A DNA stretch of 63,425 nucleotides, the filler included, from Chrysochromulina tobinii (taxonomy: Eukaryota), in NCBI GenBank assembly GCA_001275005.1. It is 7 parts of 7 records of this genome, joined end to end, with 100 filler letters (N's around TTAATTAATTAA, not from the genome) between each part and the next. Parts side by side here need not be neighbours in the genome. Positions count along the whole stretch, not along the records: positions 7,552 to 21,497 come from JWZX01000379.1; 6 more parts are not named here. The stretch is one strand, 5' to 3'. Below, in pieces: positions 5,343-61,314 of the stretch (its first letter is position 1; every line of letters starts with the position of its first letter). Made by a program: the position numbers and the translations under genes. Below the pieces are notes generated by a model, which saw only the letters and a list, made by a program, of their open reading frames with translations, did no database searches and had not been told where the DNA came from.

Positions 5343-6805
5343 CAATACGTATCCTGATGTAGCCTGCATGTATCCTGCATGTATCCTGAAGGATACATGT
5401 ATCCCAAATGTATCCTGATGTATCTCAAATGTATCTTACATGCTCTGTTACATTCCAAGAGAATACATGTATCTTGACATTTTGCATGTAATTCACACGT
5501 ATCCCAAACGAGTCCAAGATACATTTTGGGATACACATCAGTCTTGGGCGCTTACTTGGTGTCACACTGGATACATGTCAGGATACATCAGGATACGTGT
5601 ATCTTGGACTCTTCATCAAGATACAACAGGATACACCGACAGATACAAAATCACGATACATGTATCTTGGACGGGATACATGCGGGATACAATCTGAAAC
5701 GCATACCTCGAATGTATTCTGTGAGGTACGTAACTGAGATGCAAGATACATGCGAGATACATTCGAGATACATTTGGGATACATGTATCTGCAGAGGTGA
5801 TCAAGATACATGCGGGATACACCTGAAATACATCATGAGATACATGTATCTCAAATGCATCCAGAGATCGACATATCTGATATGAAGGAGACATGCGGGA
5901 TACATGCAGGATACATGCAGCATACATGTATCCTAGAAGGTAATCAAGATGCATACGGGATACATACGGGATACACATTCGGAATACATGCAGGATACGT
6001 ATCTCTGGGGCTACGGGGAACGTATCTTGTGTGTCATGTATCTGAGGGTTAAGATACAATGTATCTTAAATGTATTTTCAATGTATCCTGAATGTATCGT
6101 AAACATATCCCTAGGTAAGATACATTTTATTCTATGATGGCCAAAGTGACAGATACAAATGTATCTTGTTGTATCTCTAAAATCTCTATCTTGATGTATC
6201 TTGTGTATATGATGATATCTTGTATAGAAAACTCCCTTTTCTTGTTAAAACTCCCCCAATCCCAGTTTGGGTGTGTTTGTTATCAGGATACGTATCCTGA
6301 TGTATCCTGATGTATCCTGCGTGTATCTTGGAAGGATACACGTATCCTGATGTATTCTGATGTATCTGAAACGTATTTTACATGCTCTGTTACATTCCAA
6401 GAGAATACATGTATCTTGACATTTTGCATGTATTTTACACGTATCCCAAACGAGTCCAAGATACATTTGGGATAACACACATCAGATACACCAAGATACA
6501 TGTATCTTACTCGCTTCCGTGGTGTCACACTGGATACATATCAGGATACATCAGGATACGTGTATCTTGGACTCTTCATCACGATACATCAGGATACACC
6601 GAAATGCATCCTGAGAGAGATGTATCTGATATGAAGGTGACATGCGGGATACATTCAAAAACATGCGGGATACATGCGGGATACATGCATTCTCAGAGGT
6701 AATCAAGATACATGCTGGATACATGCGGGATACATGCGGGATACATGCGGGATACATGCGGGATACATGCGGGATACGTGATTACGTGTCTCGGGGTTGG
6801 GGGAA
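5343..6805. repeat. Two tandem copies of a GATACATGTATC-rich dispersed repeat family (probable transposon subterminal arrays)
   Basis: The block CATGCTCTGTTACATTCCAAGAGAATACATGTATCTTGACATTTTGCATGTA occurs at ~5439 and ~6381. There are dozens of GATAC/GTATC units, including (GGATACATGCG)n. Confidence 0.75.
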
Positions 6806-7451: not shown

Positions 7452-7551
7452 NNNNNNNNNNNNNNNNNNNNNNNNNNNNNNNNNNNNNNNNNNNNTTAAT
7501 TAATTAANNNNNNNNNNNNNNNNNNNNNNNNNNNNNNNNNNNNNNNNNNNN
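7452..7551. other. Artificial contig linker (N44-TTAATTAATTAA-N44)
   Basis: Identical 100-bp spacer carrying stop codons in all six frames. Confidence 0.97.
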
Positions 7552-7744
7552 TTGCGACTCGTCGCGGCTGCGATTGGCCGCGCCGGCCGCGCCACACGCT
7601 GCTGCCACTGCCTCTGACTGCCTTGCCGTCTTCACGACCGCCCTTCGCAAGCCCTCGCGCTTCCTGATGGCATGCGAGGGCGCGCCGTGCTGGGCGTCAC
7701 TGCAGAGCGCCAACAGCGTGCATTCCCCGTGCGCTTCGAAACAG

Positions 7745-8537
7745 ATGGGACAAGACCGGGGCCGCGAAGGCGGCGGCCGACAAGGCGGCGGCCGACAAGG
7801 CGGCGGCGGAGAAGGCTGCGGTCGCGAAGGCGGCGGCTGCGAAGGCAGCGGCGGACAAGGCGGCGGCGGACAAGGCGGCGGCCGCGAAGGTGGCAGCGGA
7901 CAAGGTGGCGGCTGAGAAGGCAGCGGCCGAGAAGGCGGCGGCCGAGAAGGCGGCGGCCGAGAAGGCGGCGGCGGACAAGGCGGCGGCGGACAAGGCGGCG
8001 GCGGACAAGGCGGCGGCCGAGAAGAAGGCGGCGGACGAGGCGGCGGCACAGAGGGCGGCGGTGCAGAAGGCGGCGGCGGAGAAAGCGGCCGCCTCGATGA
8101 TCAACCAAGGTGCCCCGTGGGACTTCTTCATGTCTCACGTACAGCGCGAGAGCGGCCCTGATCTGGCGCTCATCACAAGGGACCTTGAAAAGGCAGGCAA
8201 GGAGGTGTGGCTCGATAAAAACATGAAAGACTGCAGCACAGCTGCCATGATGGAAGGGGTGGAACATTCCAAGACGTTCGTGCTTGTGCTGAGCGATGGA
8301 TACTTTGACAGCCAGTTCTGTGTCAAGGAGCTGCGTCGCGCCATCAGCCTGGAAAAGAAAATCGTGCTGTGCCACAAGCAAGGTGTGAACGTCGGAGCCA
8401 TCCTGCAGAGAAAGCCAGCCGGTCCCGAATTCGCAAGTATCGGCGACAAGCAGTCGCTGGAGCTCGTCACCTCCGATGCGGTGTATCGAGAGTTCGCAGT
8501 CAAACGCCTGATGGATTCCGCGTCCAGTCGCGTGTGA
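7745..8537 (+). CDS. TIR-domain protein (TIR_2-like) preceded by a KAAA(D/E) pentapeptide-repeat stalk; 5' exon(s) uncertain
   Basis: WDFFMSHVQ...VWLDK...[32 protein letters not shown], with the catalytic-position Glu in CVKEL. About 20 KAAAx repeats at 7768-8093. An in-frame stop at 7665 implies an upstream intron (candidate AG at 7743-7744). Confidence 0.8.
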
Positions 8538-8544
8538 ACTGCGG

Positions 8545-8780
8545 CGTGCCGGCGTGCCGTGGGCGGCGTGAGGTGTGAACGGCGTGAGGTGTGAACGGCG
8601 TGCCGTGGGCGGCGTGATGCTGTCGTGTGGTCCGACGCGTTCACACACACGACGTTCACACTTGGGTGTGTGGGCCGACGACGAGCAGTGCAACCGTGCG
8701 CAGCTCCAGGTCCAGGCCCAGGTCCAGGTCCAGGCCCAGGTCCAGAGCAGTGCAACCGTGCGCAGGTCCAGGTCCAGGCC
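8545..8780. repeat. Short tandem repeats downstream of the TIR gene: (GGCGTGAGGTGTGAAC)x2 and (GTCCAG/GCCCAG)n
   Basis: Visible directly in the sequence. Confidence 0.7.
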
Positions 8781-9591
8781 CATCGCCGCTGCTCTGGAGA
8801 CAGAGACTGCCTGTAACTGCCTGATGCACACCGAGGAGCGAGGGTGAAGTGATCGGATGGGTTGGAAGTGTGAAGTGGACGGGGGTGCCACACGGACTGG
8901 GCGGAAGATGACATCCGTCTGAATGGCGTGGCGCCGCGGCGAGAGACGAGCAACGAGGTGACGAGTCGTGGTAGAGTCGTGGTATCCTATCGGGATCGTC
9001 GGTGCGACAAGGTATCAAGATAGCGAATTCCGAGTATGTGGTTGTGCGTGGATCAGTGTGAGTCGTCATGGAGTGTCGAGTCTGTGTATGCGGTGCGGTC
9101 GCTGTCGTGTGTGTCACCTGTGTGCGCGTCCCCCCGGTGCTGTGAGCCCGGTCGCCAGTAAACGTGCTTTAAGCTTCACTTTCATGTTCACTTTGTCCCG
9201 ATCGTTCAGTTTGGTTCTTGAGAGGTCGAGACCCGCTCAGAGTCCTGAGATTGATCCTGACTCGGTAGGGCGGCCTCTACATGCAACACGGCGGTAACAG
9301 ATCGCATCTCCATCGTCGACGCTTCAGATCATTCATCAAGCATCACCCAGGGCGGACACCATATCATCGCCCGGGGCACTGCTCGCACCTTGTGCGCGAT
9401 CGCCGATCCGATGCGCCGGGAGATGCGAGCTGCGCGGCATCACTGTGGGATGTGCGGGCGAGACTGGGGTTCTGTGCAGGCCTTTGCATTTCCCCACAGA
9501 GCGGGGGGGCTGCCGCGCTGGGAGGCGCCCCTGATGAGGGATGTAATTGCGCCTGAGGTCAGTGGCACAGACTGTAGCGACTCATTCCTTC

Positions 9592-10461
9592 TCAGCTCGC
9601 GCCACGCCTCGCTCCACGGCCTTTGCTCCGAACTCGTGCTGCCCTAGCCATCGGTGGCGCCGCCGGTGGCGCCGCCCGGTTCCGAAACAGCACGTTCGCT
9701 TCGCAGCCCGAGCCCTGATTAAAATGGCGAGGCTCGTCGCATCGAAAGGCTCCTAACGGCTCAAATCCGAGCGCATGCAATGCGTCCACGGTGGTGGTGC
9801 AGTTGGGCTGGTTATCGTAGATGCCATCGCACGAGTCACGCAGCGTCTCGAGCGAGACCTCCGCGACGCGCCTCAGCAAGCCCGCACCCGCGGCGGCCAG
9901 GAGGCTGAGGTCGGCCCCCTGCGCGTCGATCTTGAGGCGCGCCACCGGCCAGCCAGCCAGCCACTCGACGAGCACGCGCCGCAGCGTGATGGCGGGCACC
10001 ATGCGCGTCTGGACCGTCTTGGCGCACGCACGCGTCACAAAGCCGTTGCTCTTCCAGCCGCCGTGCTGCGGCGTGTGCGTGCGGCGCAGCGACGAGCAAC
10101 CGTCGCGAGGCGAAACGTAGAAGGGCACGACGCCCTCGTGATCCGAGACGGCAAAGGGCAGAATGACGCCGCGTTCGTGGTGCCATCCGAGATGGCCAAC
10201 GACGCGCGCTCGAGCATTGCGCGCCAGCAGCAGCGCCCACTTGTCCACCAGCGGCTCGAAGGCGACCAAGAAGGCATCCGGGTGCTTGGGCAGCAGTTGC
10301 ATGTCCCATGTGTCGAAGGCATTGGTTCCGATTTCGACAAACAATTCCTTGGTGCTGTTGGGCACGGGGATGCGCCCGTCGCTGCTCATGTGCAGGACGT
10401 GCAAGGGCACCGAGAGCGCGCCAGTGGCAGGGTCGAGGAGAAATGGGGTCGACATGGACAT
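9592..10461 (-). CDS. FkbM-family SAM-dependent methyltransferase
   Basis: LFVEIGTN, VAFEP, PFAVSD and LKIDAQGADL motifs. Confidence 0.75.
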   Translation of the reverse strand: MSMSTPFLLDPATGALSVPLHVLHMSSDGRIPVPNSTKELFVEIGTNAFDTWDMQLLPKHPDAFLVAFEPLVDKWALLLARNARARVVGHLGWHHERGVILPFAVSDHEGVVPFYVSPRDGCSSLRRTHTPQHGGWKSNGFVTRACAKTVQTRMVPAITLRRVLVEWLAGWPVARLKIDAQGADLSLLAAAGAGLLRRVAEVSLETLRDSCDGIYDNQPNCTTTVDALHALGFEPLGAFRCDEPRHFNQGSGCEANVLFRNRAAPPAAPPMARAARVRSKGRGARRGAS

Positions 10462-10590
10462 TTTCGTGTGAATGGACCGACGAAGGTGTGAATTTAACTT
10501 TCCCCCCCTACCACCCCCAATGCCACAGGCCGGCACTGATTCCCATGGCGACACGCGCAGCACGCGCGCGACTACCTTGTACGCTCGCGC

Positions 10591-11865
10591 TCACGCCGGT
10601 GGAGCGACCTTCTCCTTGCTGGGGAGCGCCCCCTCCGCCAGCTTCTGCCGCAGCCGCTCCGCCGCCTTCTCCTTGCTTGCCGCCTCCGCCAGCTGTCCGC
10701 ACCCGGCGTCAATGTCAATGCCTCGACGCACGCGCACCGTGGCGGGGATGCCGTACTTGCCGAGCACCGCGACAAACTTGTCCGCATTTGGAAGGCTCGT
10801 CGGCGCGCCATCGAAACCATTAGTGGGGTTGAGAGGGATGAGGTTGACGTGGCAGTTGAGGCCCTTGAGCAGCTGCGCGAGCTGCTGCGCGCTCTCCCGG
10901 TCATCGTTGCGCCCGGCGATCAGCGCCCACTCGAATGAGATCCGGCGGCCGCTCGTGTCCACGTAGTACCGGCAGGCGTCGAGGAGCTCCTCGAGATCGT
11001 ATCTCCGATTGACGGGCATGATCGCCGAGCGCGCGTCGTCGCTCGACTCGTGCAAGGAGATCGCGAGCCCGATCGCGAGCCCCTCGTCTGCAAAGCGCCG
11101 GATCTGAGGCACGAGGCCCACCGTCGAGATGGTCAAGTGGCGCGCGCCAATCCCAAGCTCCGAGATGATGCGCCGCGCCGCGCCCAACACGGCGTCGTAG
11201 TTGCGGAACGGCTCCCCCATCCCCATGAAGACGATGTTGCTCAGCCGCTCGTCCTTGGCCCGCAGCTCCGCCGAGAAGCGTGCCGCCTGCTCAAAGATCT
11301 CCGCCTCGCTCAGATCGCGCTTGAAGCCCATCTGGCCCGTGGCGCAAAACGTGCACCCCATCGCGCAGCCCACCTGCGAAGAGATGCACGCGGTGCGCCG
11401 GTTGTCGCGGTATGGCATGAGCACCGACTCGATGAGCGAGCCGTCATGGCAGCGCCACAGCCGCTTGCGTGTGCCGTCGCGGCTGTCAATCTCTTTCGCA
11501 GTCTCGAGCTCACCAAGGGTGGCGTGGGCTTCCAGCTTGGCACGCAGTTCCTTGGGCAATGTTTGCATCGATTGGATGTCGACCGCGGGCGAGTCGCCGT
11601 ACATGGCGTCGCGAATCTGCTTCAAACGGAACTTTTTCTCACCCCACCCCTCCAGCAGTGCAGAGAGCTCGTTGTCGCTGAGACCGTACAGGTTGGCCTT
11701 GCGCAGCGAGGCCGTGCTGCAAGCGGCAGGCGCAGGCGTGCGCACGCCGACGGAGAAGAGGCGCTTGTGCGTGGCGCCCACGTGTAGCGCCTGGACCGGC
11801 ACCGCGGCTAGGACCACCAGCCCCAGCCCGGCACGGCGAAAGGTCGCAGAGTGTGCTGCACCCAT
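10591..11865 (-). CDS. rlmN: Radical-SAM rRNA/tRNA methyltransferase RlmN, organelle-targeted
   Basis: CISSQVGCAMGCTFC (CxxxCxxC), FMGMGEP, TISTVG, RRGIDIDAGCGQL, plus an N-terminal extension. Confidence 0.93.
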   Translation of the reverse strand: MGAAHSATFRRAGLGLVVLAAVPVQALHVGATHKRLFSVGVRTPAPAACSTASLRKANLYGLSDNELSALLEGWGEKKFRLKQIRDAMYGDSPAVDIQSMQTLPKELRAKLEAHATLGELETAKEIDSRDGTRKRLWRCHDGSLIESVLMPYRDNRRTACISSQVGCAMGCTFCATGQMGFKRDLSEAEIFEQAARFSAELRAKDERLSNIVFMGMGEPFRNYDAVLGAARRIISELGIGARHLTISTVGLVPQIRRFADEGLAIGLAISLHESSDDARSAIMPVNRRYDLEELLDACRYYVDTSGRRISFEWALIAGRNDDRESAQQLAQLLKGLNCHVNLIPLNPTNGFDGAPTSLPNADKFVAVLGKYGIPATVRVRRGIDIDAGCGQLAEAASKEKAAERLRQKLAEGALPSKEKVAPPA

Positions 11866-12049
11866 CAATCACTCACGAGACGCGGTCAATCATCTCATCA
11901 CGAGGCACGCGGTTTCGTGCACAGAGAGGCGACGTCAGCGGACTCCCCTTCAGTTCTCCACATCAAAGTTTGTTTCCACATCTTGCCGCGGAGATTGAGA
12001 ACGCGCGCGAGGCAAACGCACACCGCGTGCGATCGTGCCGATTTCATTC

Positions 12050-14868
12050 ATGAGGACCATTCCCATGCTCCTGGTGCTTTACATCCAAGTCGTGTGCGGC
12101 TGCACGCTGACTCCGCGCATCGTCCTTGGTGTCCGCGGTACGCTCCCGTTTGTGCGGCGTTCGCCGCTGGTGCTGGCCACCGAGTCGGGCCGCAGCGACA
12201 GCGACGACAGCAGCACCAGCAGCACCAGCAGCACCAGCAGCACCAGCAGCACCAGCAGCACCAGCGCCAGTGACTTGTCTCGTCAGGAGAAGCGGCTACG
12301 CGCCGAGCGGCTGGCGCTGCAGGCTGAACGTGCCGCCCTGGAGCTCGCGGCGCTCGAGCTCGACGCGGCGCAGCTCAGGCGCGAGGCCGAGAGCCTTGCG
12401 CCACGAGAGGCACCGCCAGCAGCCGCAGCGACCGCACCCATCTCCGGATCCGTGACGGCCTCGGAGACGCCGGCAGCCGCAACCAAGGCGCCGGGCGCAC
12501 CCGGCAGCGCGAGCCCCATCGAGCAACTCTTGGCCTCACTCAAGAGCAACAGCAGCACGGACGCTGGCGCAAGCCGGGCTGGTGGTCAGTCCAAGCCGCC
12601 GGCGAGTTTGTCGGGGAGCAGCCTCACAGAGGTCCTCTCGGGGCAGAGCGAGGGCGCGCTGCAACTGAGCGAGGCGCAGGTGTCGCTCGCGCGCAACCGA
12701 GTCTTCGACTACGACACGTTCTACGTCAGCCAGGTCGAGCAATCGTTCATCGGGACTATTTTTCGTGGCAACCTACGCACCAACACGAGTGTGGTCTACG
12801 CGCGCGTGAGCGCCAAGGCGGCGGCGGAGCCGGAGCTGGCGGGCATCCAGTTCTTGCTGCTGCAGGACCCGCTCGCGCTCACCCTCGAGGGGCTCCAGGC
12901 GGGCGAGGCACGAAAGCCCGTCTGCCTCTGATTGCCTCTGATTGCCTCTGATTGCCTCTGATTGCCTCTGATGATCTCCCTCATCAGGAACGAAAGCCCG
13001 TCTTTCTTGATTGCGCTTGATTGCGCTTGATGGCGAGTACTAATTGGGTCTGATTGCCTCCCTCATCAGGAACGAAAGCCCGTCTTCCTCGCCCTGCCCG
13101 CACGAGCAACCGCTCTGCGTCAACGAATCCCTGAACTGAGCGTGGTGTTGCTAGGGGCGGCGGCGAGTGTCATCACGACGCTCGGGTTCGCGCTCTCGGT
13201 GTACATCCTCGCCGACGGCGGCGCGATGCTCGAGCAGATCAGCAAAGGCGACCCCGCCCCCGTCGAGGCCGCCTTTCCGATTGCGATTGGCTTGGGCGCC
13301 TTGCAGCTCGCGCACGAGATGGGCCACCTCGTGGCGGCGCGAGTGCACGGGATGCGCACGGGCGTCCCGCTCCCCATACCGTCGCTCCAGATCGGCAACT
13401 TCGGGTGCATCACCAAACTGCTCACCTTCCCGCGCAGCCGCACCGCGCTCTTCGATTTCGCTCTCGCCGGTCCGGCGCTCGCCACGGCGCTCGGACTCGT
13501 CCTGTACCTCGTCGGCCTCGCCCTCTCGGTCGACTTACCGGTGCCCAGCCTACCCGCAGGTGAGTGCCATTGATTGCCACTGATGACCTGCCTTGCATGC
13601 AAGTGCTCATCGCAGCGCGGCCAACATGCGGTGCAAGCTCTCGAGTACGCTGATTGCCACTGATGACCTGCCTTGCATGCAAGTGCTCACTGTAGCGCGA
13701 CCTACCCGCAGGGCTGCTCGACCCCGCGGCCGCCGCGTCGGCCGCGGAGGCCGCCTCGACTGCGTCCACCATTGCGGGCTCAACAGCCGCCGCGTCTGCC
13801 GGCGCCGCGACGGGCACCTTTGCACTCGCCTCCGCCGCACCCAGCGCTGCCTTGGCGGCGGTGGGCGCACCAGCGGCGGCGGACGCGGCGGCGGCGGCGA
13901 CGACGGCGGCGGCGGCGGCGAGCTCGGGCGGTGGTGAGATCTTCCCTGTCGTCCCGAGCGACCTGCTCCTCTCGTCTCTCTTGCTCGGCTCGATCGCACA
14001 AGTACGACTCGCCACATTGATTGCCTCTGATGGCCTCTGATTGCCTCTGATTTCCTCTGATTTCCTCTGATTTCCTCTGATTGCCCTCGGCTCGATCGCA
14101 CAGGTACGACTCGCCCCTCTGATTGCCTCTGATGGCCTCTGATCGCCTCTGATGGTCCCGCTGATTGCCTCTGATGGCCTCGGCTCGATCGCACAGCTAC
14201 GACTCGCCACACTCATCATTGCGCCGCTCATGGCCTCTGATCGCCTCGCTGATTGCCTCGCTGATTGTCTCGCTGATGGCCCCTCTGATTGCGCAGCTCA
14301 TCCTGCCCAACTTGGCAAGCTCGCCCGTCATCTCGCTCCACCCGCTCGCCGTCATCGGGTTCGTCACCTTCCTGGTGAACGCGCTGCAGCTCCTCCCGAT
14401 CGGCCGTCTCGACGGCGGGCGCGTGGCGACGGCGGTGCTCGGGGGCGGGCAGGCAAGTCTCGTCAATTGCGACTGATTGCGACTGATTGCGACTGATTGC
14501 GACTGATTGCGACTGATTGCGACTGATTGCGACTGATTGCGTCTGATTGCGTCTGATTGCCTCTGATTGCCACTGATTGCCACTGATTGCCACTGAGTAT
14601 CTCGCTACGGCAGGCGGGCTTCGTCTCGGGCCTCACTCTGACGTTGCTCGGCTTCTCGACCCTCTTTGGCGGGGATAACCCCATCCTCCTTTTTTGGGGC
14701 CTGATCATTATCTTCCTGCAACGGCAGCCGGAGCTGCCCTGTGCGGACGACATCACCGGGGTCGACACGACGCGCACGGTGCTCGCGGCTGTGGCGGGCG
14801 TCGTCACGCTGCTCACGCTGCTTCCGTGCCCCATCCAGTCGGTCGCGGCGCCGCTGGGTGGGTTTTGA
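12050..14868 (+). CDS. EGY-like M50 (site-2) plastid metalloprotease, 5 exons: 12050-12907, 13070-13559, 13712-14001, 14297-14452, 14614-14868
   Basis: HEMGH zinc motif, FDFALAGP, LHPLAVIG...NALQLLPIGRLDGGR. The splice sites (2 GC-AG, 2 GT-AG) restore one continuous frame. Confidence 0.85.
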
Positions 14869-14998
14869 GACACGGCGCCGTGTTGGGCACAGTCGAGTCA
14901 TCTACTTTGAGACGCGGCGCCGTGTTGGGCGCAGCCGAACCATCTACTTTGAGACACGGCGCCGTGTTGGGCGCAACCGAGCCATCTACTTTGCGACG
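14864..14998. repeat. 42-bp minisatellite (3 units plus a partial) starting at the EGY stop codon
   Basis: Unit TTTGAGACACGGCGCCGTGTTGGGC...CATCTAC, containing the palindrome ACACGGCGCCGTGT. Confidence 0.8.
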
Positions 14999-15382
14999 CG
15001 GACTCTGCGCGGCCCCCACCCACGTTTACGCCCCGACGACGAAATTTGAATGAAAAGGCGACGATGTGTCGCATCAACCATGGCGGAACCATGGGTGCCT
15101 GTGGGGTACTATTGTACCCGTAGCCGGTGGCCTTTAAAGCGCGCGGGCGGAGAGTTTTTGAGCAGGCATATGGTGTGTGTGTGTTCGTGAGCGTGCGTGC
15201 ATGAATCACTTGCTGCACTGCCCGACGGTTATCCGATGGTAGGCGGAGGAGGTGGAGTCAAAAACATGGTACAATGAAGTGCGGGAGGACCCGGCGACGA
15301 AACTTTTCAGCTGTTTCGGCCAGCCAAACTTGAGCGGATGAGCTGGCAACACCGCGAGATTTCTGCGTCGCTGCGATTGTCA

Positions 15383-16573
15383 ATGGAGGACGAGGAGCTC
15401 GAGCGCGAGCAGGAGCCACGGCGCCACCGACGCGAACCCGAGGCGGCTATGCCGCCTGCTCGCGGCGAAGGCGGCGAAGGCGGCGAAGGAGGTGAAGGCG
15501 ACCGCTCCTTTGAGCCCGATTCGACGCCGGCGGCTGAAAATGGCAAGGAGCGCGACGTCGAGAGCGGACCAGTGCGCACGCTGTGCGTGCGCAACCTGCC
15601 GCTGAACACGGCGCCGCGCGAGGTGCGCAATCTCGTCGCCCTGCTCGACGGCTTCGAAGCGTACTCGCTCGTGAGCGTGGGCGCCTTTGTGCGCTTCGCG
15701 AGCCCCGAGGCGGCACTGGCTGCCAAGGCGAAGCTCGACCAGTTCGTCTTCGACGAGGCCGAGCCCAACCGCAAGCTCGTGTTGGCGATGGCGCAGCGCA
15801 ATCTCGTCGGGCACCCCAAGAATCGCGCGCCCGCGTCGCGCTTCCCGCCCGCGGCACCAGTGAGCATGTACAGCGCGCCTGCGCCTCGGACAGCCGCCGC
15901 CGGCGGCGGCTACGGCGGCTACGACTCGCTTGCGCGGCCGAGCTACGACTCGTACGCCGCGCCGGCCGCGTACGGCGGCGGCGGTTACGGCGGCGGCGGC
16001 TACGGCGGCCGGTACGGTGGTGCATACGGTGGCGGTGGCTATGGTGGTGGCGGCGGTTATGGTGGTGGCGGCGGCGACCGCGGCGGAGGCTACGGCAGTT
16101 ACAGCGGCGGCTACGGCGGAGCCAGCGGCGGCTCCGGCGGAGCCAGCGGCGGCTACGGCGGCGCCGGCGACTCTGGCGGCGACCGCGGCGGCGACCGCGG
16201 CGGCGACCGCGGCGGCGGCGGCTACGGCGGCGGCGCCCATGGCGGCGCCCCCATAAAGCGAGCGCGTACGACGGACGCGCGCTATGATCACGGGCCCGAC
16301 GGCAACGGCGACACGCTCTGCGTTCGCTACCTGTCGGATGGCTTCACGCTGGATCATGTGGAGCAGACGGTGGCGCGCCTGCCCGGCTACCGCACGCGGA
16401 AGCTCGTGCAGGTGCGAGATGGCAGCATGATGTTTATCCTCTTCGACAGCGCCTCCGACGCACAGGGTGCGCTCGCGCACATGCGCACAATGGAGTGGCA
16501 GACGCGCACCGGCCGCTCGGTGACGCTCGAGGTAGAGGTCGCCAAGCGCTCTTTGGTGCCCGACGAGCGGTGA
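15383..16573 (+). CDS. Two-RRM RNA-binding protein with a Gly/Tyr/RGG-rich linker
   Basis: RTLCVRNLP...GAFVRFASPEAA and DTLCVRYL...MFILFDSASDAQGAL...LEVEVAK, with YGGG and DRGG repeats between. Confidence 0.8.
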   Translation: MEDEELEREQEPRRHRREPEAAMPPARGEGGEGGEGGEGDRSFEPDSTPAAENGKERDVESGPVRTLCVRNLPLNTAPREVRNLVALLDGFEAYSLVSVGAFVRFASPEAALAAKAKLDQFVFDEAEPNRKLVLAMAQRNLVGHPKNRAPASRFPPAAPVSMYSAPAPRTAAAGGGYGGYDSLARPSYDSYAAPAAYGGGGYGGGGYGGRYGGAYGGGGYGGGGGYGGGGGDRGGGYGSYSGGYGGASGGSGGASGGYGGAGDSGGDRGGDRGGDRGGGGYGGGAHGGAPIKRARTTDARYDHGPDGNGDTLCVRYLSDGFTLDHVEQTVARLPGYRTRKLVQVRDGSMMFILFDSASDAQGALAHMRTMEWQTRTGRSVTLEVEVAKRSLVPDER

Positions 16574-16890
16574 TGCAGCGGGGGGGGGGGAGGGCGGTGG
16601 CCCGCGGAGCGGCGCTGACATAGCTCTCGCACACCCGGGGGCACAGTGCCATGGCACATATGGGGAACACACGGCACCAGCTCGCAGCTGGTCGAGCGGA
16701 GCAAAGAGTGTATTTCTGTGACGAGTCTATGTCAGACACGTGGAACACTTCGAGAGCACACAGATTATTTAACAGAGTATTTGGCACACTCTTCCCCGTC
16801 TCGGGGTCGGCAGCAGCAGCGGCAACGGAAGCGAGAAAGCTCATTCGGCGCAGTGCCCACCACGACGCCCACGTCGACGTACCGGTACCT

Positions 16891-19800
16891 ATGTCGTCCA
16901 CCACTTCGGAGCCCGACGCCAACTCCGCGCAGGCGCTGGCGCGGTCTCTCAAGGCGCCTCTGAACGCAGTATCCCTCGACGCCAAGCTCGACGTTGCCGT
17001 TTGGCTCGTGGCAGCCGACGAGAGGACGTGCATCTTTCCCGACCGGCTGCGCTTTGTTCTCGACTGGCTGTGCGGCGTGCTTCGCGGTGCCAAAGCGGGC
17101 AGCGACGGCGTGCCACCGCGTGCCGATGTGCGCTTTTGGCGGCTTCTAGACGCACTCTTGCATCGAGCTGCCGGGTTGCCCGAGCCGATCGATGATGCGG
17201 CGCCACCGGCACAGCTGCCTCGGCCGCTGCCCTCGGGCTTTCGAACACGCCTGGCTCAGAGCAGTCGCCTGCTGTTGCAGAGCGCCGCGGCCGCCCTCGA
17301 GCACGCCGCGGCCGGCAGCATGGCACCCAGCGCCAGCGCGCACCTCTGCGCGCGCGTCCGTCGCGTCTCATGCCTGCTCCTCATCGAGGAGGCCAGCTGG
17401 TTCCGGCCGGGGGCCGAGGCGGTCGCCGAGTACGCCGGGCGCGTCAGCCAGAGCGCGGCGCTGCTGCTCGAGGGCAGCGCGAGCCCGTACGCGACGGTCA
17501 GGGAAGCGATGGCAGCGGGCGCACCGCATGCCCTTCACGCGGCTGCCGATGCGAGCTCTGCCGTTGCGGCGCTCACCGGCGAGACACCGCCGCGAAAGGT
17601 GTTGATGATCCTAACCGGCACCCTGCTGCGCCCGATGCTGGCGCTGCTGTCGAGCTGCTCGCGCCTCTTCGGCAGCGGCGCGGACGAGGAGGCCGACGAT
17701 GGCGGCGGCGCCCACCACGGCGCGACACACTCGGGATCGTTCCGCGCCCGCGACGGCGCCTCGCGTGCCCTCGTGTGCGCGGCGGTGGACGCGGCCGCGG
17801 TGATCTCGGAGAGTGTGAGATCGATCTTGGTGCACGCCGATCATTTGCCTGAGTATGCCGCGACCCTCCGGCACAGCATGCCCACGCCCGAGGCGGCATT
17901 GAGCCTGGGTGGCAGCGAGCGCACCGGTGCAGCGGGCCGCGAGATCAGCATCGCACCCAGCAGCAGCGGCAGCAGCAGCGGGAAGCGCGCACCAAAGCGG
18001 GCGAAGGCGGAGGCGCCGAGCGGCGGCGGCGGGAGCGCGAACTACACCGCGGCAACGCTCGAGGCCATCGCTCGCTTCACTCGTGATGATTTGCAAAGCG
18101 CGCCCGCGCGGGCGCTGTCCCGGGCGCTGGCAGCTGCCTCTGCGGCGGGCGCTGTACCGGGCGCGACCCCGAGCGTTGTACCGGGCGCTACTCTGAGCGC
18201 TGTCCCGGGCGCTCGTCTTGCCAACGGCAGCGGCGGCGGCGGCGGCGGCGTGGCAGCGGATGCGGCCGCCCCCGCTGCGCTGCTCCTGCCTGTCTTGCCT
18301 GCCCTGCTTGAGTGGATAGCCTCGGCATACGAGCAGCAGCAGGCCGTCATGCGCGAGGAGCGTTCAACTCGCCTCCGCCTCGGACTAATAAGTGGAAGCC
18401 GCACGCCACGCGCCGTCACGGCAGACGGCGGCGCCCGCGACGGCGCGGACGCTCCGGCCGAGGCGCCCACGACGGCGGAGGGCAGCTCGCTCGAGCTTGG
18501 GTTTGGGTTGCTCGCGTGGCTTGCTACCCCTCTGCTAGGCTCGCTCACGGCTTTGCTTGGGGACACACTCGCGGCCCTTGGCGCCGACGACAAGACCGGC
18601 TTAAGGGGCGGCCGATGCATGCAACCAAATGACGAGACCGGCTTAAGGGGCGACCGATGCATGCAACCAAAGGTGGAGGCTCGCGCGCAGCTCGAGCTGG
18701 CCGCCACGGTGCGATTGCCATCCGAAGCCTTGCTAAAGGAAGCCTTGAACTTGCCTTGCATGCAAGCGCTCATAACGGCGCCCCTCTTTCCCCAGTGCGG
18801 TTGCCATCCGAAGCCTGCGACGCGCTCGCAGCCTTGCACCTGCCTTGCATGCAAGCGCTCACCACGACGCCCTGTTCCCCACAGGTACGATTGCCATCCG
18901 AAGCCTGCGACGCGCTCGCAGCCTTGCTTCGCACGGCGGCGCGCTGCGGCGTCTACCGACCCCGCGAAGACGTATCCGGCGAGCAGAAGCGATGGATTCG
19001 GGCGATGATGCAGCCCGCGGTCGCTCTCGCCAGGGCGCTCGCGACTCGTGCCCATCCATTCGCTGGTACGCCGGCAGAGGCGGCGGCGGCGGCGCGGGCA
19101 GCGGCGGAGGCTGCCTCCGCCTCCGCCGCCTCCTCCTCCGCCGCCGCTTCCTCCGCCACCTCCGCCCGCCGCCTCCTCGACCGCAGCTGCGGCCGCAGCC
19201 GCATCGCTCCAATCGGCGACACGCGCGACGCACGCCGCCGTGTGCTCCATACTGGACGCCGCCCTCGAACTCGATGCCCTTCTCTTTCGACCTCACCAGC
19301 CCGTGGCCATCGCGCTGCTCGCGACGGCGCCCTCGCTCTCCCGGGCCGCGCTCGGCTTGCTGCACACGCTGCTCGGGACGGCCGCGGCAGAGCGTCAGGT
19401 GCCGCTGAGTGCGTCTGATTGCGTCTGATTGCTTCCGAGCGCACCTGATTGCATCTGAGCGCATAGGAGATTGCGTCTGATTGCATGGGTGATTGTTTAG
19501 AAGATTGCATAGGTGATTGCGACTGATTGTCTCCCTCATCAGGTGCCGCTCCTCCTCAAGACACTCGCCGAGCAAGCGTCCAGCCTCGTGGCGCTCCTTG
19601 GCGGCGGCGGCGGCGGCTGCGGGCGTGCTGCTGAGGTGGGCAGTGCTAGGGTTGGCGGCGGGCTTGGTGGCGGACTCGGCGGTGCTACGCTTGTCGGCGG
19701 CGGCGGCGGTGGCCTCGGCGAGGGTGGCCTCGGCAGGTTGATGGGATGCGACGCCTTTTGGAAGCAGCTCGCGGAGATTGTATCTGCGAGCCCGGAGGCA

Positions 19801-21497
19801 CAATCTCCGGAGCTCGTACCGGTAGTGCTCTCGTACTTGGAGGCGATGTGTGCGCACGCTGCGGGGGGCGGCGGCAAGGGGGTGGGCGAGGTCTGCTGGC
19901 AGCTCGGCTGCCTCCTTGCCCTCGTCTTCGACGCCATCCCGCTGGCCACGCACACGGCCGCACCCCTCGCCCTCGCCGCCCAGCGCGCCCAGGCGCTCGC
20001 CACAGCGCTCACACCGGCGCTCGGCACGGCGCCCACGGTCGGCGCCCACCACAGCGCGGCGCGGTCCGAGGACGACGGTTATCGGGAGGCGGCCGCGATG
20101 CTGCTCTGGCGGGCAGGCGTGGCCCTTGAGCGAGGATGCTCGGAGTTGCTCGAGCCGGGGGCTTGGGGCTTGATGCGACCGACGGAGCCGCCCGCGGCGC
20201 TGGTGGCAGCTCGGGACGCTCTGCATCGCCTGAGTGACACCCACGGCGGCGGCAGCGCCGAGGGCAAAGGCGGGCGCATAGGCGGTGGCAAGGGCGGCGC
20301 TAGAGGTGTTAGCGCCAGCTACGCCGACGCAGCAGTGCAGCTTGCGGCGGCCGACGCGGTGGCCTATGCGGCTGAGTGGTTTCATCTCGACCGCGTTGTG
20401 ATGAGCACTGCTGGCCTCTTCACACCTTGGGGTTCGTCATCGCCCTCCTCCGCGCCGGCCGAGGACGACGAGGACGACCCCCAAGGCGCCGCCCCCGCCG
20501 AGCGCGCCGCCACCGTCGAGGGGCACAAGGGGCCCACACAGGCGGGGCGTAAGCGGCGCAAGGGGTCCTCGTTGGCCGAGAGCGTTGTGGCGGGCGCTCA
20601 CGAGGGCGCCGTGGCGGGCGCTCACGATAGCGCCGAGCGGCTCGCCCGCCGCGCCGCAAAGCGCCAAAAGGGCGTTGTGGTGGGCGCTCACGAGAGCGCC
20701 AAGCGCCAAAAGGTTGTGCGCCGGTGGCTCAAAGAAGACGTGGCACTGCTGGCCACGTGGCGCCCGGCGGAGGCCAAGCTCGCGGCCACGTGGACGGCGG
20801 CTCCCGCAGCGGCTGCACTCGCGCCTGGGTGCGCTGCGCCTCTGCGTGCCTTCGCGTCGCGGTGGGCGCTCGCTTGTGAGCACGCCCCTCTGCTCGATGC
20901 GTACGCGAGCGCGTCGGACCTCCGACGATGGCTCGGTGTGCTATGGACGGCGGTCTGCGCGAGCGAGGGCGCCGTGGCGGGCGCAGCCGACCTCGAGGCC
21001 TCCGCGGCGGGCGCCGTGGCGGGCGCCGCTAGGATGGCGGGCAGCGGCGCGCGCGCCCAGTACGGCGCGAGTGACGGCGCCCAGTACGGCGCGCCACAGA
21101 GCGTGCGTGCGGTCAGCTGGAGGGTGCTGCAGGCGGCGAGTACCTACGAGCTGCCGCGCGTGCGAGCGGCGCTGCTGCCATCCGCGTGGCGTTGGCTGCG
21201 CCGCCATCTGCCTGCCGAAGAGAGTGTGCGTAGCCGCCATTTGCGTGCACAGCTGCGATTCGTGCTTGATGGAGCTACCGCGGAGGCGGGGGGCGAGGGT
21301 GGGGGCGAGGCGGGGGGCGAGGGGGGGGGCGAGCGGGGGGCGAGGCGTCCGACGAGTCGTGGTCGAGGTTGTTGGGTAAGCGTGGCGCGGAGTGTCTCGC
21401 AATCAGTTCGGAGCAGTGGCGTTCCATCGGGCAGCTCGTTGCGATCTTGAGCCGTCTGCCGTTGGAGTGGGTGCCTCTCGAGCAGGTGCGTTGATTG
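16891..21497 (+). CDS. Large Ala-rich multi-exon protein, probable URB2/Npa2 ribosome-biogenesis homolog; truncated at the contig end
   Basis: The N-terminus LARSLKAP...DAKLDVA...FPDRLRFVLDWL...RFWRLLDALLH resembles the URB2 N-terminus. Introns 18709-18884 and 19399-19542 are resolved. One frame change near 19000-19250 is not. Confidence 0.5.
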
Positions 21498-21597
21498 NNN
21501 NNNNNNNNNNNNNNNNNNNNNNNNNNNNNNNNNNNNNNNNNTTAATTAATTAANNNNNNNNNNNNNNNNNNNNNNNNNNNNNNNNNNNNNNNNNNNN
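21498..21597. other. Artificial contig linker
   Basis: N44-TTAATTAATTAA-N44. Confidence 0.97.
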
Positions 21598-25018: not shown

Positions 25019-25302
25019 GGATAAGTATCCTTCTTTACGATACATTTAGGATACAGTAAGGATACATTTAGAATACAATGTATCTTAACCCTCAGATACA
25101 TGACACACAAGATACATGCACGATACATGTCAGATACAAAGGCTTATTCAAAGGGATACATTCGAGGATACGTATCTCGAGCCCTACTTGCGGGGGCGCT
25201 TGGATACCCCCAACCCCCCGAGATACGTGTCCCGCATGTATCCCGCATGTATCCCGCATGTATCCCGCATGTCTCAATTCATATCAGATACATCTCTCTC
25301 TG
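25019..25302. repeat. Third copy (inverted) of the GATACATGTATC repeat family
   Basis: TGTATCTTAACCCTCAGATACATGACACACAAGATAC (~25079) is the reverse complement of ~6023-6058. CCCCCAACCCC-GAGA matches ~6790-6803. Confidence 0.75.
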
Positions 25303-25402
25303 NNNNNNNNNNNNNNNNNNNNNNNNNNNNNNNNNNNNNNNNNNNNTTAATTAATTAANNNNNNNNNNNNNNNNNNNNNNNNNNNNNNNNNNNNNNNNNN
25401 NN
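25303..25402. other. Artificial contig linker
   Basis: N44-TTAATTAATTAA-N44. Confidence 0.97.
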
Positions 25403-25513: not shown

Positions 25514-25575
25514 CCTAACCCTAACCCTAACCCTAACCCTAACCCTAACCCTAACCCTAACCCTAACCCTAACCC
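25514..25575. repeat. Interstitial telomere-type repeat (CCCTAA) x ~10
   Basis: Perfect CCTAAC array directly after the Myb fragment. Confidence 0.92.
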
Positions 25576-25640
25576 GAACAAGGCGCCGTCTTGATTTCAC
25601 GGCGCGTCCGATGTCGGGCGAGTTTGAAAAGTGAACGAAA

Positions 25641-34597: not shown

Positions 34598-34697
34598 NNN
34601 NNNNNNNNNNNNNNNNNNNNNNNNNNNNNNNNNNNNNNNNNTTAATTAATTAANNNNNNNNNNNNNNNNNNNNNNNNNNNNNNNNNNNNNNNNNNNN
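34598..34697. other. Artificial contig linker
   Basis: N44-TTAATTAATTAA-N44. Confidence 0.97.
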
Positions 34698-34698
34698 A

Positions 34699-35448
34699 GC
34701 GAAAACGGACGCCAAGGGCTTCGGAATCTTCAACGACACCCTTGAGGTCATCGAGGTCATCGAGGAGCCCAGCCTGCCCGTCGTGACGGCGCGGATGACG
34801 CCCATCAAGAAGTTGCCACGTGTCCTAGCCCACGCGCGCGCCGATGAGGCTGAGAGACGCATCATCGCTGAGCTAGGGGTCTGGAGAGGCTTTGGTGCGC
34901 CAGAGCCGTGGCGCCAGCGGCTCAATGTTTCCGCGGGGGGGCAGGGCGACGAGTGGGAGCGCATACGGTCCGAGGTGCTGAGAGAGGTGCGGCGGAAAAC
35001 CAAGGGCAAGGGGGGGTGCGCATGTGGGGGGTACTGTAGCCGGAGGTTCTGCCCTACATGCTGCCACAAGCAGCCGTACGCCTGCGACCACGACGGCTGC
35101 GGCAAGATCTTTGCGCAGGCGAGCCATTTCGAAGTGCACAAGCGCTCGCACACGGGCGAGAAGCCGTACGCCTGCGACCACGACGGCTGCGGCAAGATCT
35201 TTGCCCAGGCGAGCCATTTCGAAGTGCACAAGCGCTCGCACACGGGCGAGAAGCCGTTCGCCTGCGACTACGTGGGCTGCACGTATGCATGCACCACGTC
35301 GGGCAACCTCGCGGTGCACAAGCGCTCGCACACGGGCGAGAAGCCGTTCGCCTGCGACTACGTGGGCTGCACGTATGCAAGCACCCAGTCGTGCAACCTC
35401 CAGGTGCACATCAAGCGCTCGCACACGGGCGAGAAGCCGTTCGCGTAG
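34699..35448 (+). CDS. C2H2 zinc-finger protein (4 fingers, TGEKP linkers), 5'-truncated
   Basis: YACDHDGCGKIFAQASHFEVHKRSHTGEKP x2 and FACDYVGCTYA...HKRSHTGEKP x2. The frame is open from the contig start. Confidence 0.88.
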   Translation, partial: AKTDAKGFGIFNDTLEVIEVIEEPSLPVVTARMTPIKKLPRVLAHARADEAERRIIAELGVWRGFGAPEPWRQRLNVSAGGQGDEWERIRSEVLREVRRKTKGKGGCACGGYCSRRFCPTCCHKQPYACDHDGCGKIFAQASHFEVHKRSHTGEKPYACDHDGCGKIFAQASHFEVHKRSHTGEKPFACDYVGCTYACTTSGNLAVHKRSHTGEKPFACDYVGCTYASTQSCNLQVHIKRSHTGEKPFA

Positions 35449-39092: not shown

Positions 39093-39192
39093 NNNNNNNN
39101 NNNNNNNNNNNNNNNNNNNNNNNNNNNNNNNNNNNNTTAATTAATTAANNNNNNNNNNNNNNNNNNNNNNNNNNNNNNNNNNNNNNNNNNNN
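39093..39192. other. Artificial contig linker
   Basis: N44-TTAATTAATTAA-N44. Confidence 0.97.
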
Positions 39193-53915: not shown

Positions 53916-54015
53916 NNNNNNNNNNNNNNNNNNNNNNNNNNNNNNNNNNNNNNNNNNNNTTAATTAATTAANNNNNNNNNNNNNNNNNNNNNNNNNNNNN
54001 NNNNNNNNNNNNNNN
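53916..54015. other. Artificial contig linker
   Basis: N44-TTAATTAATTAA-N44. Confidence 0.97.
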
Positions 54016-60165: not shown

Positions 60166-61314
60166 GCGAGGTCTGCTGCTGCCGCTGCTGCCTCTGGCGA
60201 GCGCGGGCGCGGCGGGCGCGGGCGGCAGGGTCGCGTGTGCCTGTGGCTTGGGAGACGGCTTGGGCGGAGCCCGCCCCATCCGCTTGAAGAACTCGAGGAT
60301 CGGGTCTGCGGGAATGAGGCGAGCGCCGTGGTGAGCACTTGCATGCAATCGGTGGTCCGCTGGTGGGAGGCGCGAGCGCGGGACGTGGGAGACGTGCATC
60401 CAAATTTGGGACGTGGGAGACGTGCCAAGCATCCAAATTTGGGTCGGAGAGCTTCTCAAGCGTCTCCGCAGGGCATTGCGAGGCGCGCGTGTGCGCGGCT
60501 GCGTACACGTCTTGCCGAGCGCCGACGGGTTGGACTGGAGCGCCGCGCCCGTGAGCGCGAGCGCTGCATAGCACAGCGAGAGCTTGCGCAGCACGCCAGG
60601 CCAGCGCGCGTAGACCTCTGGTGGGAAGGCTCCGCCGACTGCGTTGACCTTTTGCGGGTTGAGGAGGTGCGTGCAGAGCATGTTGAAGAAGAAGGCGGAC
60701 GAGCCCAAGCCTGTCATGACCACGCCCTGCACCGAGCCCTTCTTACCCGGGAACCAGCGGCCGCCCGTGATGAACGGCATCTGATACGAGAGACCGATGC
60801 CAAGGCCGAAGAGGACCGCATAGCTGAGGACGAACTGGGTGAGGGTGGTCGCGGATGAGGCGAGCCAGAGGCCGGAGGCCATCATGGCGCCGCCGAGAAG
60901 CGCCGTCAGCCGCGGGCCGACGAGCGACTCGAACAGCGGGCCGAAGGGCATGCCGCACATCTGCGACAGCAGCGTGAAGGCGAGGACGAGTCCCGCGTCC
61001 GAAGGGCCCTCGCCGCCCTCGGGCGACCAGTACTTGAGGGAGGCGGGCATGTAGGTGACCAAGTTGCCCCAGCAGTACAGGCTGCCGCACACGAGGTGTA
61101 TCATGACGCCGCCCAGGACCGCCAGGTATCCCTTCGTGAGCGGCGCCGCGGGCTCTGGCATGGCCTTGCCGGCGATGAGGTCTGTAGATGGCGCCGTGTG
61201 CGCCAGCGGCGCACTCGGCAGCAGCGGCTTGCGTGCGCGCAAGCCTGGCCGATCGGCGGCATGAGCAACCGCAGCCAGGAGCGCGAGAGTTGCCACGAGA
61301 CGCAGCGAAGGCAT
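59186..61314 (-). CDS. MFS transporter (oxalate:formate antiporter-like), multi-exon; intron 60306-60506 plus further intron(s) at ~59710-60240
   Basis: Multiple TM helices, GSLYCWG, GRWFPGKKG...G, GRFFWG.MSDKFG, plus an N-terminal signal-like peptide. Confidence 0.82.

What the first reader, a model, noticed from the sequence alone, without database searches (positions are those of the whole stretch)
12908..14613. EGY introns are flanked by, and contain, duplicated exon sequence: an introner-like intron-generating mechanism
Seen: intron 1 (12908-13069, GC donor) starts with a near copy of the next exon's start (G[C/A]ACGAAAGCCCGTCT) and has a second copy after an internal acceptor at 12987, giving two ~80-nt units. 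Intron 2 (13560-13711) is bracketed by CCTACCCGCAGG at both ends. Intron 3 (14002-14296) contains two more copies of the upstream exon end CTCGGCTCGATCGCACA. Intron 4 (14453-14613, GC donor) has GGCAGGC at both ends. The interiors are sense-oriented TGATTGC(CTC/GAC/CAC) repeats. Known: introner transposons of Micromonas and Aureococcus take splice sites from their TSDs. Inference: these introns arise by duplication of an AG-G[T/C] exon site plus addition of a simple repeat. No TIRs are visible, so the mechanism may differ (repeat-templated break repair or a short retro-element).
Basis: partly seen in the sequence, partly recalled or inferred. Interest (0 to 1): 0.75.

Follow-up and report, generated by a model that had tools for sequence, protein, structure and literature searches.

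The report
Young introns from duplicated exon ends
In the alga Chrysochromulina, some strains have and others lack introns made of a second copy of 12-23 bases of the gene plus filler shared with other introns; these likely arise when DNA repair copies a piece of an existing intron into a new site, so intron birth can be watched within one species.

Summary
The gene is an M50 (EGY-like) protease of the Chrysochromulina tobinii/parva complex. RNA contigs join across introns 1, 3 and 4; intron 2 was not covered. Introns 1 and 2 are young gains. Strain L001 lacks intron 1 exactly; among informative proteins, 14 of 25 lack intron 1 and 3 of 21 lack intron 2; a sister lineage lacks both. Intron 3 is different: an older intron, lengthened by ~30-nt duplications across its own donor (1-, 2- and 3-unit alleles exist). 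Intron 4's 7-nt repeat is borderline. Neighbouring genes carry the same two fillers with duplications of 2 to ~43 nt, truncated at either end, without terminal inverted repeats or structure. That fails the definition of a DNA-transposon introner. Most likely, microhomology-guided template switching copies branch-point-rich intron sequence into a staggered break (0.5); retro-insertion in trans is the main rival (0.25). It resembles Daphnia break-repair introns, but here the filler is a shared intron family. A 2025 introner survey lists 0 families for C. tobinii. This scan noted the same footprint earlier on another piece of this genome (e1-2577349) and similar ones in other protists.

The parts
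12050..14869 (+). EGY-like M50 metalloprotease gene; exons 12050-12907, 13070-13559, 13712-14001, 14297-14452, 14614-14869; 683 aa
   Evidence: Open spliced frame; Pfam M50 in exons 2 and 4; cluster members named C. tobinii KOO53106.1 and a C. parva model
12908..13069 (+). Intron 1, GC-AG, two units; polymorphic young gain
   Evidence: 162-nt skip in run X14; absent exactly from L001, one unit in L004; absent in 14 and present in 11 of 34 proteins
12908..12987 (+). Intron 1 unit A: copy of the exon 2 start (supplies the GC donor), five 10-nt TGATTGCCTC repeats, filler acceptor CTCCCTCATCAG
12988..13069 (+). Intron 1 unit B: second copy of the exon 2 start (GA), different repeat filler, same acceptor; found alone as the whole intron in L004
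13560..13711 (+). Intron 2, GT-AG; family-B filler cut short at its 3' end; acceptor from a 12-nt target copy (13549-13560 = 13701-13712); polymorphic young gain
   Evidence: absent in P0002, P0003, P0024 and in 8 of 8 informative sister-lineage proteins; no RNA joint seen
13620..13644 (+). About 25 nt of exon-like sequence found nowhere else in the window, directly before a second family-B donor (13645); likely captured from another locus
   Evidence: One copy in the window, none in L001 or L004; origin inferred
14002..14296 (+). Intron 3, GT-AG; older intron expanded by two ~30-nt duplications of exon end plus donor (copies begin at 13984, 14086, 14179) with repeat filler between; the last internal donor reads CT
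   Evidence: RNA joint in X13 and X16; L001 has only the last unit, starting GT; P0024 reads as two units; position shared with the sister lineage
14453..14613 (+). Intron 4, GC-AG; 13 copies of a 10-nt repeat; 7-nt junction repeat (borderline)
   Evidence: RNA joint in 3 of 4 runs; present in L001 with fewer repeats; 3 of 72 control pairs reach 7 nt
18709..18884 (+). Neighbouring-gene intron: two units, each a copy of the next exon's start (about 22 and 43 nt) plus family-B filler cut short at its 5' end
   Evidence: RNA joint in X14 and X17
19399..19542 (+). Neighbouring-gene intron: 12-nt target copy, repeat filler, same acceptor as intron 1
   Evidence: 144-nt skip with 12 ambiguous letters in X17
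10950..10951 (-). Empty site in the RlmN-like gene; L001 carries here an 83-nt full-length family-B intron with its own donor and acceptor, sharing only AG with the target
   Evidence: read-in in 2 and read-through in 12 of 15 listed proteins, 1 too short

Best explanation
Introns 1 and 2 are recent, still segregating insertions made of a duplicated stretch of exon plus filler shared with other introns, and they likely arise by microhomology-guided template switching during repair of a staggered break or stalled fork. Inferred steps: (1) the strand being extended leaves the exon at a short match (2-7 nt) to one of the many existing introns; (2) it copies a piece of that intron (DNA or unspliced RNA), of variable length; (3) it returns to the gene some bases upstream, so the target is duplicated. 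The filler is an array of branch-point-like CTGAT motifs, with or without its own donor or acceptor; any missing splice site comes from the duplicate. Splicing from a site in the left copy to the matching site in the right copy restores the original message whatever the length of the duplicate. Only sense-oriented, spliceable products would survive selection. The same event at an existing intron, or unequal exchange between duplicates, adds units (introns 1 and 3). Shown: splicing of introns 1, 3, 4; empty alleles; absence in outgroups; shared fillers; variable duplication lengths and ends. Inferred: the enzyme, the template, and the order of events.
For: Exact empty sites: L001 for intron 1; P0002, P0003, P0024 for intron 2. 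All 14 proteins lacking intron 1 read on into intron 2 or 3, so they come from unspliced templates. The sister lineage lacks intron 1 in 10 of 10 and intron 2 in 8 of 8 informative proteins. P0004 (4.1-kb contig) and P0007 (16.9-kb contig) read through all four sites. One filler family (B) occurs full length with a 2-nt overlap (L001 RlmN-like gene), 3'-truncated with a 12-nt duplication (intron 2), and 5'-truncated with 22-43-nt duplications (18709-18884): both ends vary, which a transposase or a 3'-primed retro-insertion does not predict. A foreign ~25-nt piece sits before a second donor in intron 2. RNA contigs from other loci show repeat-spacer-repeat structures whose spacers contain CAGGC (table 5c). 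Two different fillers occupy the intron 1 site, each with GA and GC starts. Several junctions fall where the exon resembles the filler (CCTC in intron 1; exon starts at 18885 and L002 13728 resemble the family-B donor; read; not tested statistically). Branch-like motifs are strand-biased, 37 sense to 2 antisense in contig 7552-21497. No terminal inverted repeat over 5 nt in 9 of 9 stretches; folding z-scores 0.06 to 1.88 in 5 of 5.
Against: Only 9 family introns were measured, from one ~20-kb neighbourhood; 5 of 9 exceed the control maximum, while intron 4 (7), L003 (6; 27 nt with 7 mismatches), the L001 RlmN intron (2) and intron 3 (1) do not. Fixed 3' ends joined at AG, with variable duplications and 5' truncation (intron 1, 19399, 18709), fit target-primed reverse transcription equally well. 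No donor locus for any filler was identified. Microhomologies were read by eye. Presence calls from proteins rest on a stop after the duplicated stretch, and some could be contig ends; the proteins are not independent samples. Precise loss in some alleles cannot be excluded. Strand bias is expected under every model.
Confidence: 0.5

Rival explanations
1. Target-primed reverse transcription in trans: a non-LTR retrotransposon enzyme nicks the target, primes on intron RNA (excised or unspliced) at its 3' AG or internally, and makes variable duplications and 5'-truncated copies.
For: Variable duplications of 12-23 nt; constant acceptor ends (CTCCCTCATCAG, CCCCACAG) joined at AG; variable 5' junctions with short matches; many other loci share the intron 1 acceptor (loose ends at 13070). 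Non-LTR-derived introners are about 5% of classified families in PMC12130899.
Against: 3'-truncated copies that keep the donor (intron 2, L002 unit 2), a full-length copy with a 2-nt overlap, no poly(A) tail in any unit seen, no Rfam match. No partner element could be sought, as no genome is held.
Confidence: 0.25
2. Intron transposition: a whole intron is reverse-spliced into another message and fixed by cDNA recombination; the long exon copies are later local duplications and deletions.
For: The 83-nt L001 intron has both splice sites and shares only AG with the target. Intron 3 shows that local duplication across a junction does occur at existing introns.
Against: Single-unit alleles of introns 1 and 2 already carry the long duplicate and lack one of the filler's splice sites (L004, L001); no allele with a clean full-length intron was seen at these two sites.
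Confidence: 0.1
3. Old introns homogenised by a minisatellite, with local duplications; the empty alleles are precise losses.
For: True in part for intron 3 (position shared with the sister lineage; 1-3 units). Intron 4 has no empty allele in the strains seen. Intronic 10-11-nt repeats are reported for Emiliania huxleyi (recalled; not found).
Against: Introns 1 and 2 are absent from the sister lineage and from two distant genomic orthologs. The sister lineage has its own polymorphic intron of the same build at a site empty in 21 of 21 informative proteins of this species.
Confidence: 0.1
4. A classical introner: a non-autonomous DNA transposon with fixed ends and a fixed short duplication.
For: Shared sequence between introns at unrelated sites; a splice site taken from the duplicate; a Chrysochromulina sp. 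introner with a 4-bp duplication and no inverted repeats is described (PMC9860276 Fig. 2C legend).
Against: Duplication length runs from 2 to ~43 nt within one family, ends are not fixed, and there are no terminal inverted repeats. The Polarella classes described in the parts read each have one length of 3-8 nt.
Confidence: 0.05

Closest known systems
Daphnia pulex neointrons from repair of staggered double-strand breaks (PMC4202315; abstract and passages seen)
   Same: Presence/absence within a species; a copy of the adjacent exon end at the far end of the intron; repeated events inside young introns; parallel gains at one site.
   Different: Daphnia exon-intron repeats are 4-12 bp; here 12-23 nt at the junction and up to ~43 nt internally. 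Here the filler is recognisably copied from a few intron families that already carry branch-like motifs and splice sites.
Introners that take one splice site from the target duplication (Chrysochromulina sp. TARA MAG, PMC9860276 section 7 and Fig. 2C legend; Symbiodinium and Polarella classes, bioRxiv 10.1101/2020.10.14.339549 parts 1-2 of 4)
   Same: Homologous introns at unrelated sites, sense orientation, donor or acceptor recruited from the duplicate, GC and possibly GA donors in young introns.
   Different: Those have one duplication length per family (3-8 nt) and defined ends; here both vary and copies are chimeric. C. tobinii is listed with 0 families in the 2025 survey (PMC12130899 supplement file 7), which removed families whose similarity came mainly from simple repeats.
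Intron gain by tandem duplication of an AGGT-containing exon segment (PMC3443670; passages seen)
   Same: Donor in the left copy and acceptor in the right copy restore the message exactly.
   Different: The duplicate alone is too short here; foreign filler supplies the length, the branch motifs and often one splice site.
Non-LTR retro-insertions and SINEs (target-primed reverse transcription; features recalled)
   Same: Variable duplications, 5' truncation, simple-repeat content.
   Different: 3'-truncated copies, no poly(A) tail, no known RNA-derived head; the repeats lie 5' of the constant end.

Membership tests
Introner (broad sense: repeated sequence that creates introns) | Homologous intron sequence at non-homologous sites | tested here: met
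   Family B in 6 introns or intron-like sites of 5 genes; shared acceptor end in intron 1, 19399-19542 and L002
Introner (broad sense) | Insertion creates a spliced intron at a previously empty site | tested here: met
   Empty alleles; RNA joints
Introner (broad sense) | Consistent homology boundaries near both intron edges across copies | tested here: not met
   Full-length, 5'-truncated and 3'-truncated copies of family B
DNA-transposon (TIR/MITE) introner | Terminal inverted repeats | tested here: not met
   Longest terminal inverted match 3-5 nt in 9 of 9 stretches; only an internal 12-nt palindrome
DNA-transposon (TIR/MITE) introner | Fixed target-duplication length of 2-9 nt | tested here: not met
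   2, 7, 12, 12, 17, 23, 23 nt at junctions
Non-LTR retro-insertion or SINE | Variable duplication with fixed 3' end and 5' truncation | tested here: inconclusive
   Fits intron 1, 18709 and 19399; does not fit intron 2, L002 unit 2 or the L001 RlmN intron
Non-LTR retro-insertion or SINE | tRNA-, 5S- or 7SL-derived head | tested here: not met
   0 Rfam matches at E <= 0.1 in 12800-14700
Non-LTR retro-insertion or SINE | Autonomous partner sharing the 3' end | not testable with these tools
   No genome held
Break-repair neointron (Daphnia type) | Polymorphic gain with a direct repeat of the adjacent exon end | tested here: met
   Introns 1 and 2
Break-repair neointron (Daphnia type) | Origin at a repaired staggered break | not testable with these tools
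   Needs an induced-break or mutation-accumulation experiment
Pure tandem duplication of an AGGT segment | Intron consists only of duplicated exon sequence | tested here: not met
   The exon copy is at most 23 of 72-82 nt in single-unit alleles

The most novel reading that the evidence does not exclude
Spliceosomal introns here propagate without any transposon of their own: intron RNA, whose tandem CTGAT array works as a cut-anywhere splicing cassette, serves as the template for repair or reverse transcription at breaks in exons. Each new intron then becomes a template for more. This would be intron transposition caught in progress, with alleles still segregating in a culturable alga.
Probability: 0.25. 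Interest if true: 0.8.

Novelty: new variant of a known kind. Interest (0 to 1): 0.6.

Why it matters
How new spliceosomal introns arise is still open: about 72% of introner families have no assigned mechanism (PMC12130899). This case joins two routes usually kept apart, break-repair duplication and copying of a shared intron family. Gains segregate within one species at high density: in about 3 kb, introns 1 and 2 and an RlmN-gene intron are polymorphic, and one more insert is inferred from a protein. The species has public genome assemblies, so the mechanism can be tested by counting junctions and by inducing breaks. It also points to a blind spot: a survey that filters out simple-repeat families scored this species as having no introners.

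Tried and rejected
Whole-genome analysis: no genome is held and the contigs behind L002/L003 are not held, so the genome-wide duplication-length test could not be run. Three motif scans of viral contigs found 0 matches. Two scans of genome contigs found 0 and 2 matches, the latter single hits in bacterial records that I did not pursue. The one metagenome scan gave 15 loci, of which 4 are this gene; L002 and L003 are identical to the window over the gene and may be its source, so they count as no independent support; L005-L015 (27-52% identity) were not analysed. Intron 2 had no RNA joint in the 4 runs laid on it; runs X17 and X18 were laid only on 16800-21490. Three of 4 runs held contigs that cross an intron 1 boundary unspliced; these may be pre-mRNA or DNA, so I draw no conclusion on splicing efficiency. 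Hairpin structure as in fungal introner-like elements: rejected. A scan for duplicate-flanked acceptors over the window and two locus extensions gave 15 rows, 10 with family motifs (one is intron 2 read on the opposite strand) and 5 without; the 5 were not verified as introns. Two non-family introns in an ankyrin gene of L003 share 1 nt at their junctions, but rest on an open frame only. P0059 (56-aa chimeric fragment) was left out of the 34-protein tally; P0057 is a spliced gene model and is not counted as an empty allele. Literature: searches listed no paper describing these repeats or duplications in Chrysochromulina; the C. tobin genome paper mentions introns once in its main text (PMC4580454, passages). 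The library lacks most subscription papers. Files 13-14 of the PMC12130899 supplement were not searched, the PMC9860276 supplement is cut when stored, and bioRxiv supplements are closed, so a listing there cannot be excluded.

Full report
Observation. Splicing them out gives an open 683-aa frame from 12050 to 14869 with Peptidase_M50 matches. Cluster members carry the names Chrysochromulina tobinii (KOO53106.1, whose tail matches the window's read-in to intron 1) and C. parva. The window is a string of contigs joined by N linkers; the gene lies in the piece 7552-21497. RNA contigs join across intron 1 (1 of 4 runs), intron 3 (2 of 4) and intron 4 (3 of 4); intron 2 had no joint. Junction-spanning repeats measure 23 nt (2 mismatches), 12, none and 7 nt. 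In 72 cross-pairings of donors and acceptors from 9 introns the top score was 8, so introns 1 and 2 are beyond chance, intron 4 is borderline and intron 3 has no outer duplication.

Age and polarity. One metagenome scan gave 4 loci of this gene among 15. L002 and L003 are identical to the window and are not independent. L001, about 97% identical, lacks intron 1 exactly; L004 has only its second unit, starting with GA and flanked by a ~21-nt duplication. Proteins called on unspliced contigs extend this. Of 34 species-level proteins, 14 read through the intron 1 site, 11 stop just after the duplicated stretch, 1 is a gene model and 8 are uninformative. For intron 2, 18 read in, 3 read through, 1 is the model and 12 are uninformative. 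All 14 that lack intron 1 read into intron 2 or 3, so they are not spliced messages. Both exon alleles (GA and GC after the AG) occur with and without intron 1, so the GC donor need not have arisen by mutation after insertion. In a sister lineage (89-95% protein identity; 15 of 27 members listed), intron 1 is absent in 10 of 10 and intron 2 in 8 of 8 informative proteins, while the intron 3 position is occupied in 8 of 8. That lineage has its own polymorphic intron: translations show about nine duplicated codons and the same acceptor end (inferred from proteins). P0004 on a 4.1-kb contig and P0007 on a 16.9-kb contig read through all four sites (the alignment is gappy near intron 2). These proteins come from overlapping populations and are not independent counts, and some stops could be contig ends.

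Intron 3 is an expansion, not a birth. L001 has a 100-nt intron equal to the window's last unit, P0024 reads as two units, the window has three, and L004 has a rearranged form. The duplicated stretch is about 30 nt and includes the donor.

Two fillers. Family A is a 10-nt TGATTGC-core repeat, often ending in CTCCCTCATCAG. Family B is built around the palindrome CTTGCATGCAAG followed by a CTCAC motif. Family B appears full length with both splice sites and a 2-nt overlap in the neighbouring RlmN-like gene of L001, at a site empty in the window (2 of 15 listed proteins read in, 12 read through, including 5 sister-type). It appears 3'-truncated in intron 2, with the acceptor from the duplicate, and 5'-truncated at 18709-18884, with the donor from the duplicate. 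RNA confirms the neighbouring introns 18709-18884 (2 of 4 runs) and 19399-19542 (1 of 4, 12 ambiguous letters). L002 shows a further two-unit intron mixing both families. Summed contig depth on the repeats reaches several hundred to about 1,200, against about 5 on exons, and several unrelated sequences follow the intron 1 acceptor, so the fillers occur at many other loci. The window's intron 2 holds a ~25-nt piece found nowhere else in the window, directly before a second donor, best read as exon flank captured from another locus. There are no terminal inverted repeats, no stable fold and no Rfam match. Branch-like motifs number 2-19 per intron on the sense strand and 0-2 on the other.

Mechanism. 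A duplicate that spans the future junction restores the message whatever its length, provided a donor lies in the left copy and an acceptor at the matching place in the right copy. The filler provides length, branch motifs and whichever site is missing. Variable duplications, truncation at either end, chimeric interiors and a foreign flank point to template switching guided by short matches (0.5). Target-primed reverse transcription in trans explains the 5'-truncated copies well and the 3'-truncated ones poorly (0.25). Reverse splicing explains the clean RlmN intron but not introns 1 and 2 (0.1). Old introns with loss (0.1) and a cut-and-paste introner (0.05) fit least. That introns 1 and 2 are recent gains with target duplication is much firmer (about 0.9) than any one mechanism. 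Intron 1's duplicate contains an in-frame GT whose use adds four residues; using it in both copies gives exactly the C. parva model's sequence. This may let GA-starting alleles be tolerated (inference).

Comparison. Daphnia neointrons show polymorphism, parallel gains and 4-12-bp exon copies from staggered breaks (PMC4202315, abstract and passages). Introners recruit splice sites from duplications of fixed length, including a Chrysochromulina sp. family with 4 bp and no inverted repeats (PMC9860276, section 7) and Polarella classes with 3-8 nt (bioRxiv 10.1101/2020.10.14.339549, parts 1-2 of 4). The 2025 survey lists C. tobinii with 0 families (PMC12130899 supplement) and removed simple-repeat-driven families (passage); in the 2022 supplement, which is cut when stored, C. 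tobinii was found only in the list of genomes surveyed. Tandem duplication of AGGT segments is reviewed in PMC3443670 (passages). Of PMC11282704 I read part 1 of 5. Intronic 10-11-nt repeats in Emiliania huxleyi are recalled, not seen in a call. It works like an introner but fails the tests of fixed ends, fixed duplication and inverted repeats.

Earlier notes of this scan. One note on another piece of this genome reports a 15-nt-flanked intron and over a hundred relatives in lake metagenomes (e1-2577349); I did not check that count and do not use it as evidence. It led me to the dinoflagellate preprint. Notes on other protists describe similar exon-copy introns.

Verdict. Real; a new variant of a known kind; interest 0.6. 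The evidence covers one ~20-kb neighbourhood, so the genome-wide junction catalogue is the deciding test.

Noticed in passing
window 10591-11865 (-): Intronless RlmN-like radical SAM methyltransferase (TIGR00048 above cut-off; Cfr models below cut-off), head to head with the EGY-like gene. Besides the L001 intron, P0076 stops in repeat-like sequence about seven codons further on, suggesting another polymorphic insert.
   Followed up: partly
P0057 (C. parva gene model): The model has eight extra residues at intron 1 and lacks six before intron 4, as expected if the predictor avoided the GC donors; gene models in this genus may be wrong at such introns.
   Followed up: partly
window 14453-14464: Intron 4's first 12 nt match the next exon's first 12 at 8 positions and begin with a strong GC donor; possibly a decayed longer duplication improved by selection. 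L003 2626-2702 looks similar (27 nt, 7 mismatches).
   Followed up: partly
window 14864-15001: 42-nt tandem repeat (3.3 copies) that begins across the stop codon of the gene.
   Followed up: no
window 12208-12265: 9-nt coding repeat (Ser-Ser-Thr) that is 27 nt shorter in L001.
   Followed up: no
window 18589-18671: In-frame 42-nt tandem duplication without filler, kept in RNA contigs of two runs: a duplication that did not become an intron.
   Followed up: no
window about 60305-60440 (-): Family-B-like 3' end and acceptor preceded by a different short repeat; no clear donor or duplication found.
   Followed up: partly
window 15338-16573 (+): 411-aa ORF with a long Gly-Tyr-rich middle; no NCBIfam match; looks like an RNA-binding protein by eye only.
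   Followed up: no
window 25514-25579: Eleven copies of a telomere-type hexamer near a contig start.
   Followed up: no
window 5349-6777 and 25034-25272: Degenerate 11-nt GATAC/GTATC satellite-like arrays on two different contigs.
   Followed up: no
window 35072-35444: 90-nt period repeat that looks like tandem C2H2 zinc fingers (by eye).
   Followed up: no
window 7452-7551, 21498-21597, 25303-25402, 34598-34697, 39093-39192, 53916-54015: Six 100-base N linkers: the window is seven joined contigs, so order across them means nothing.
   Followed up: yes
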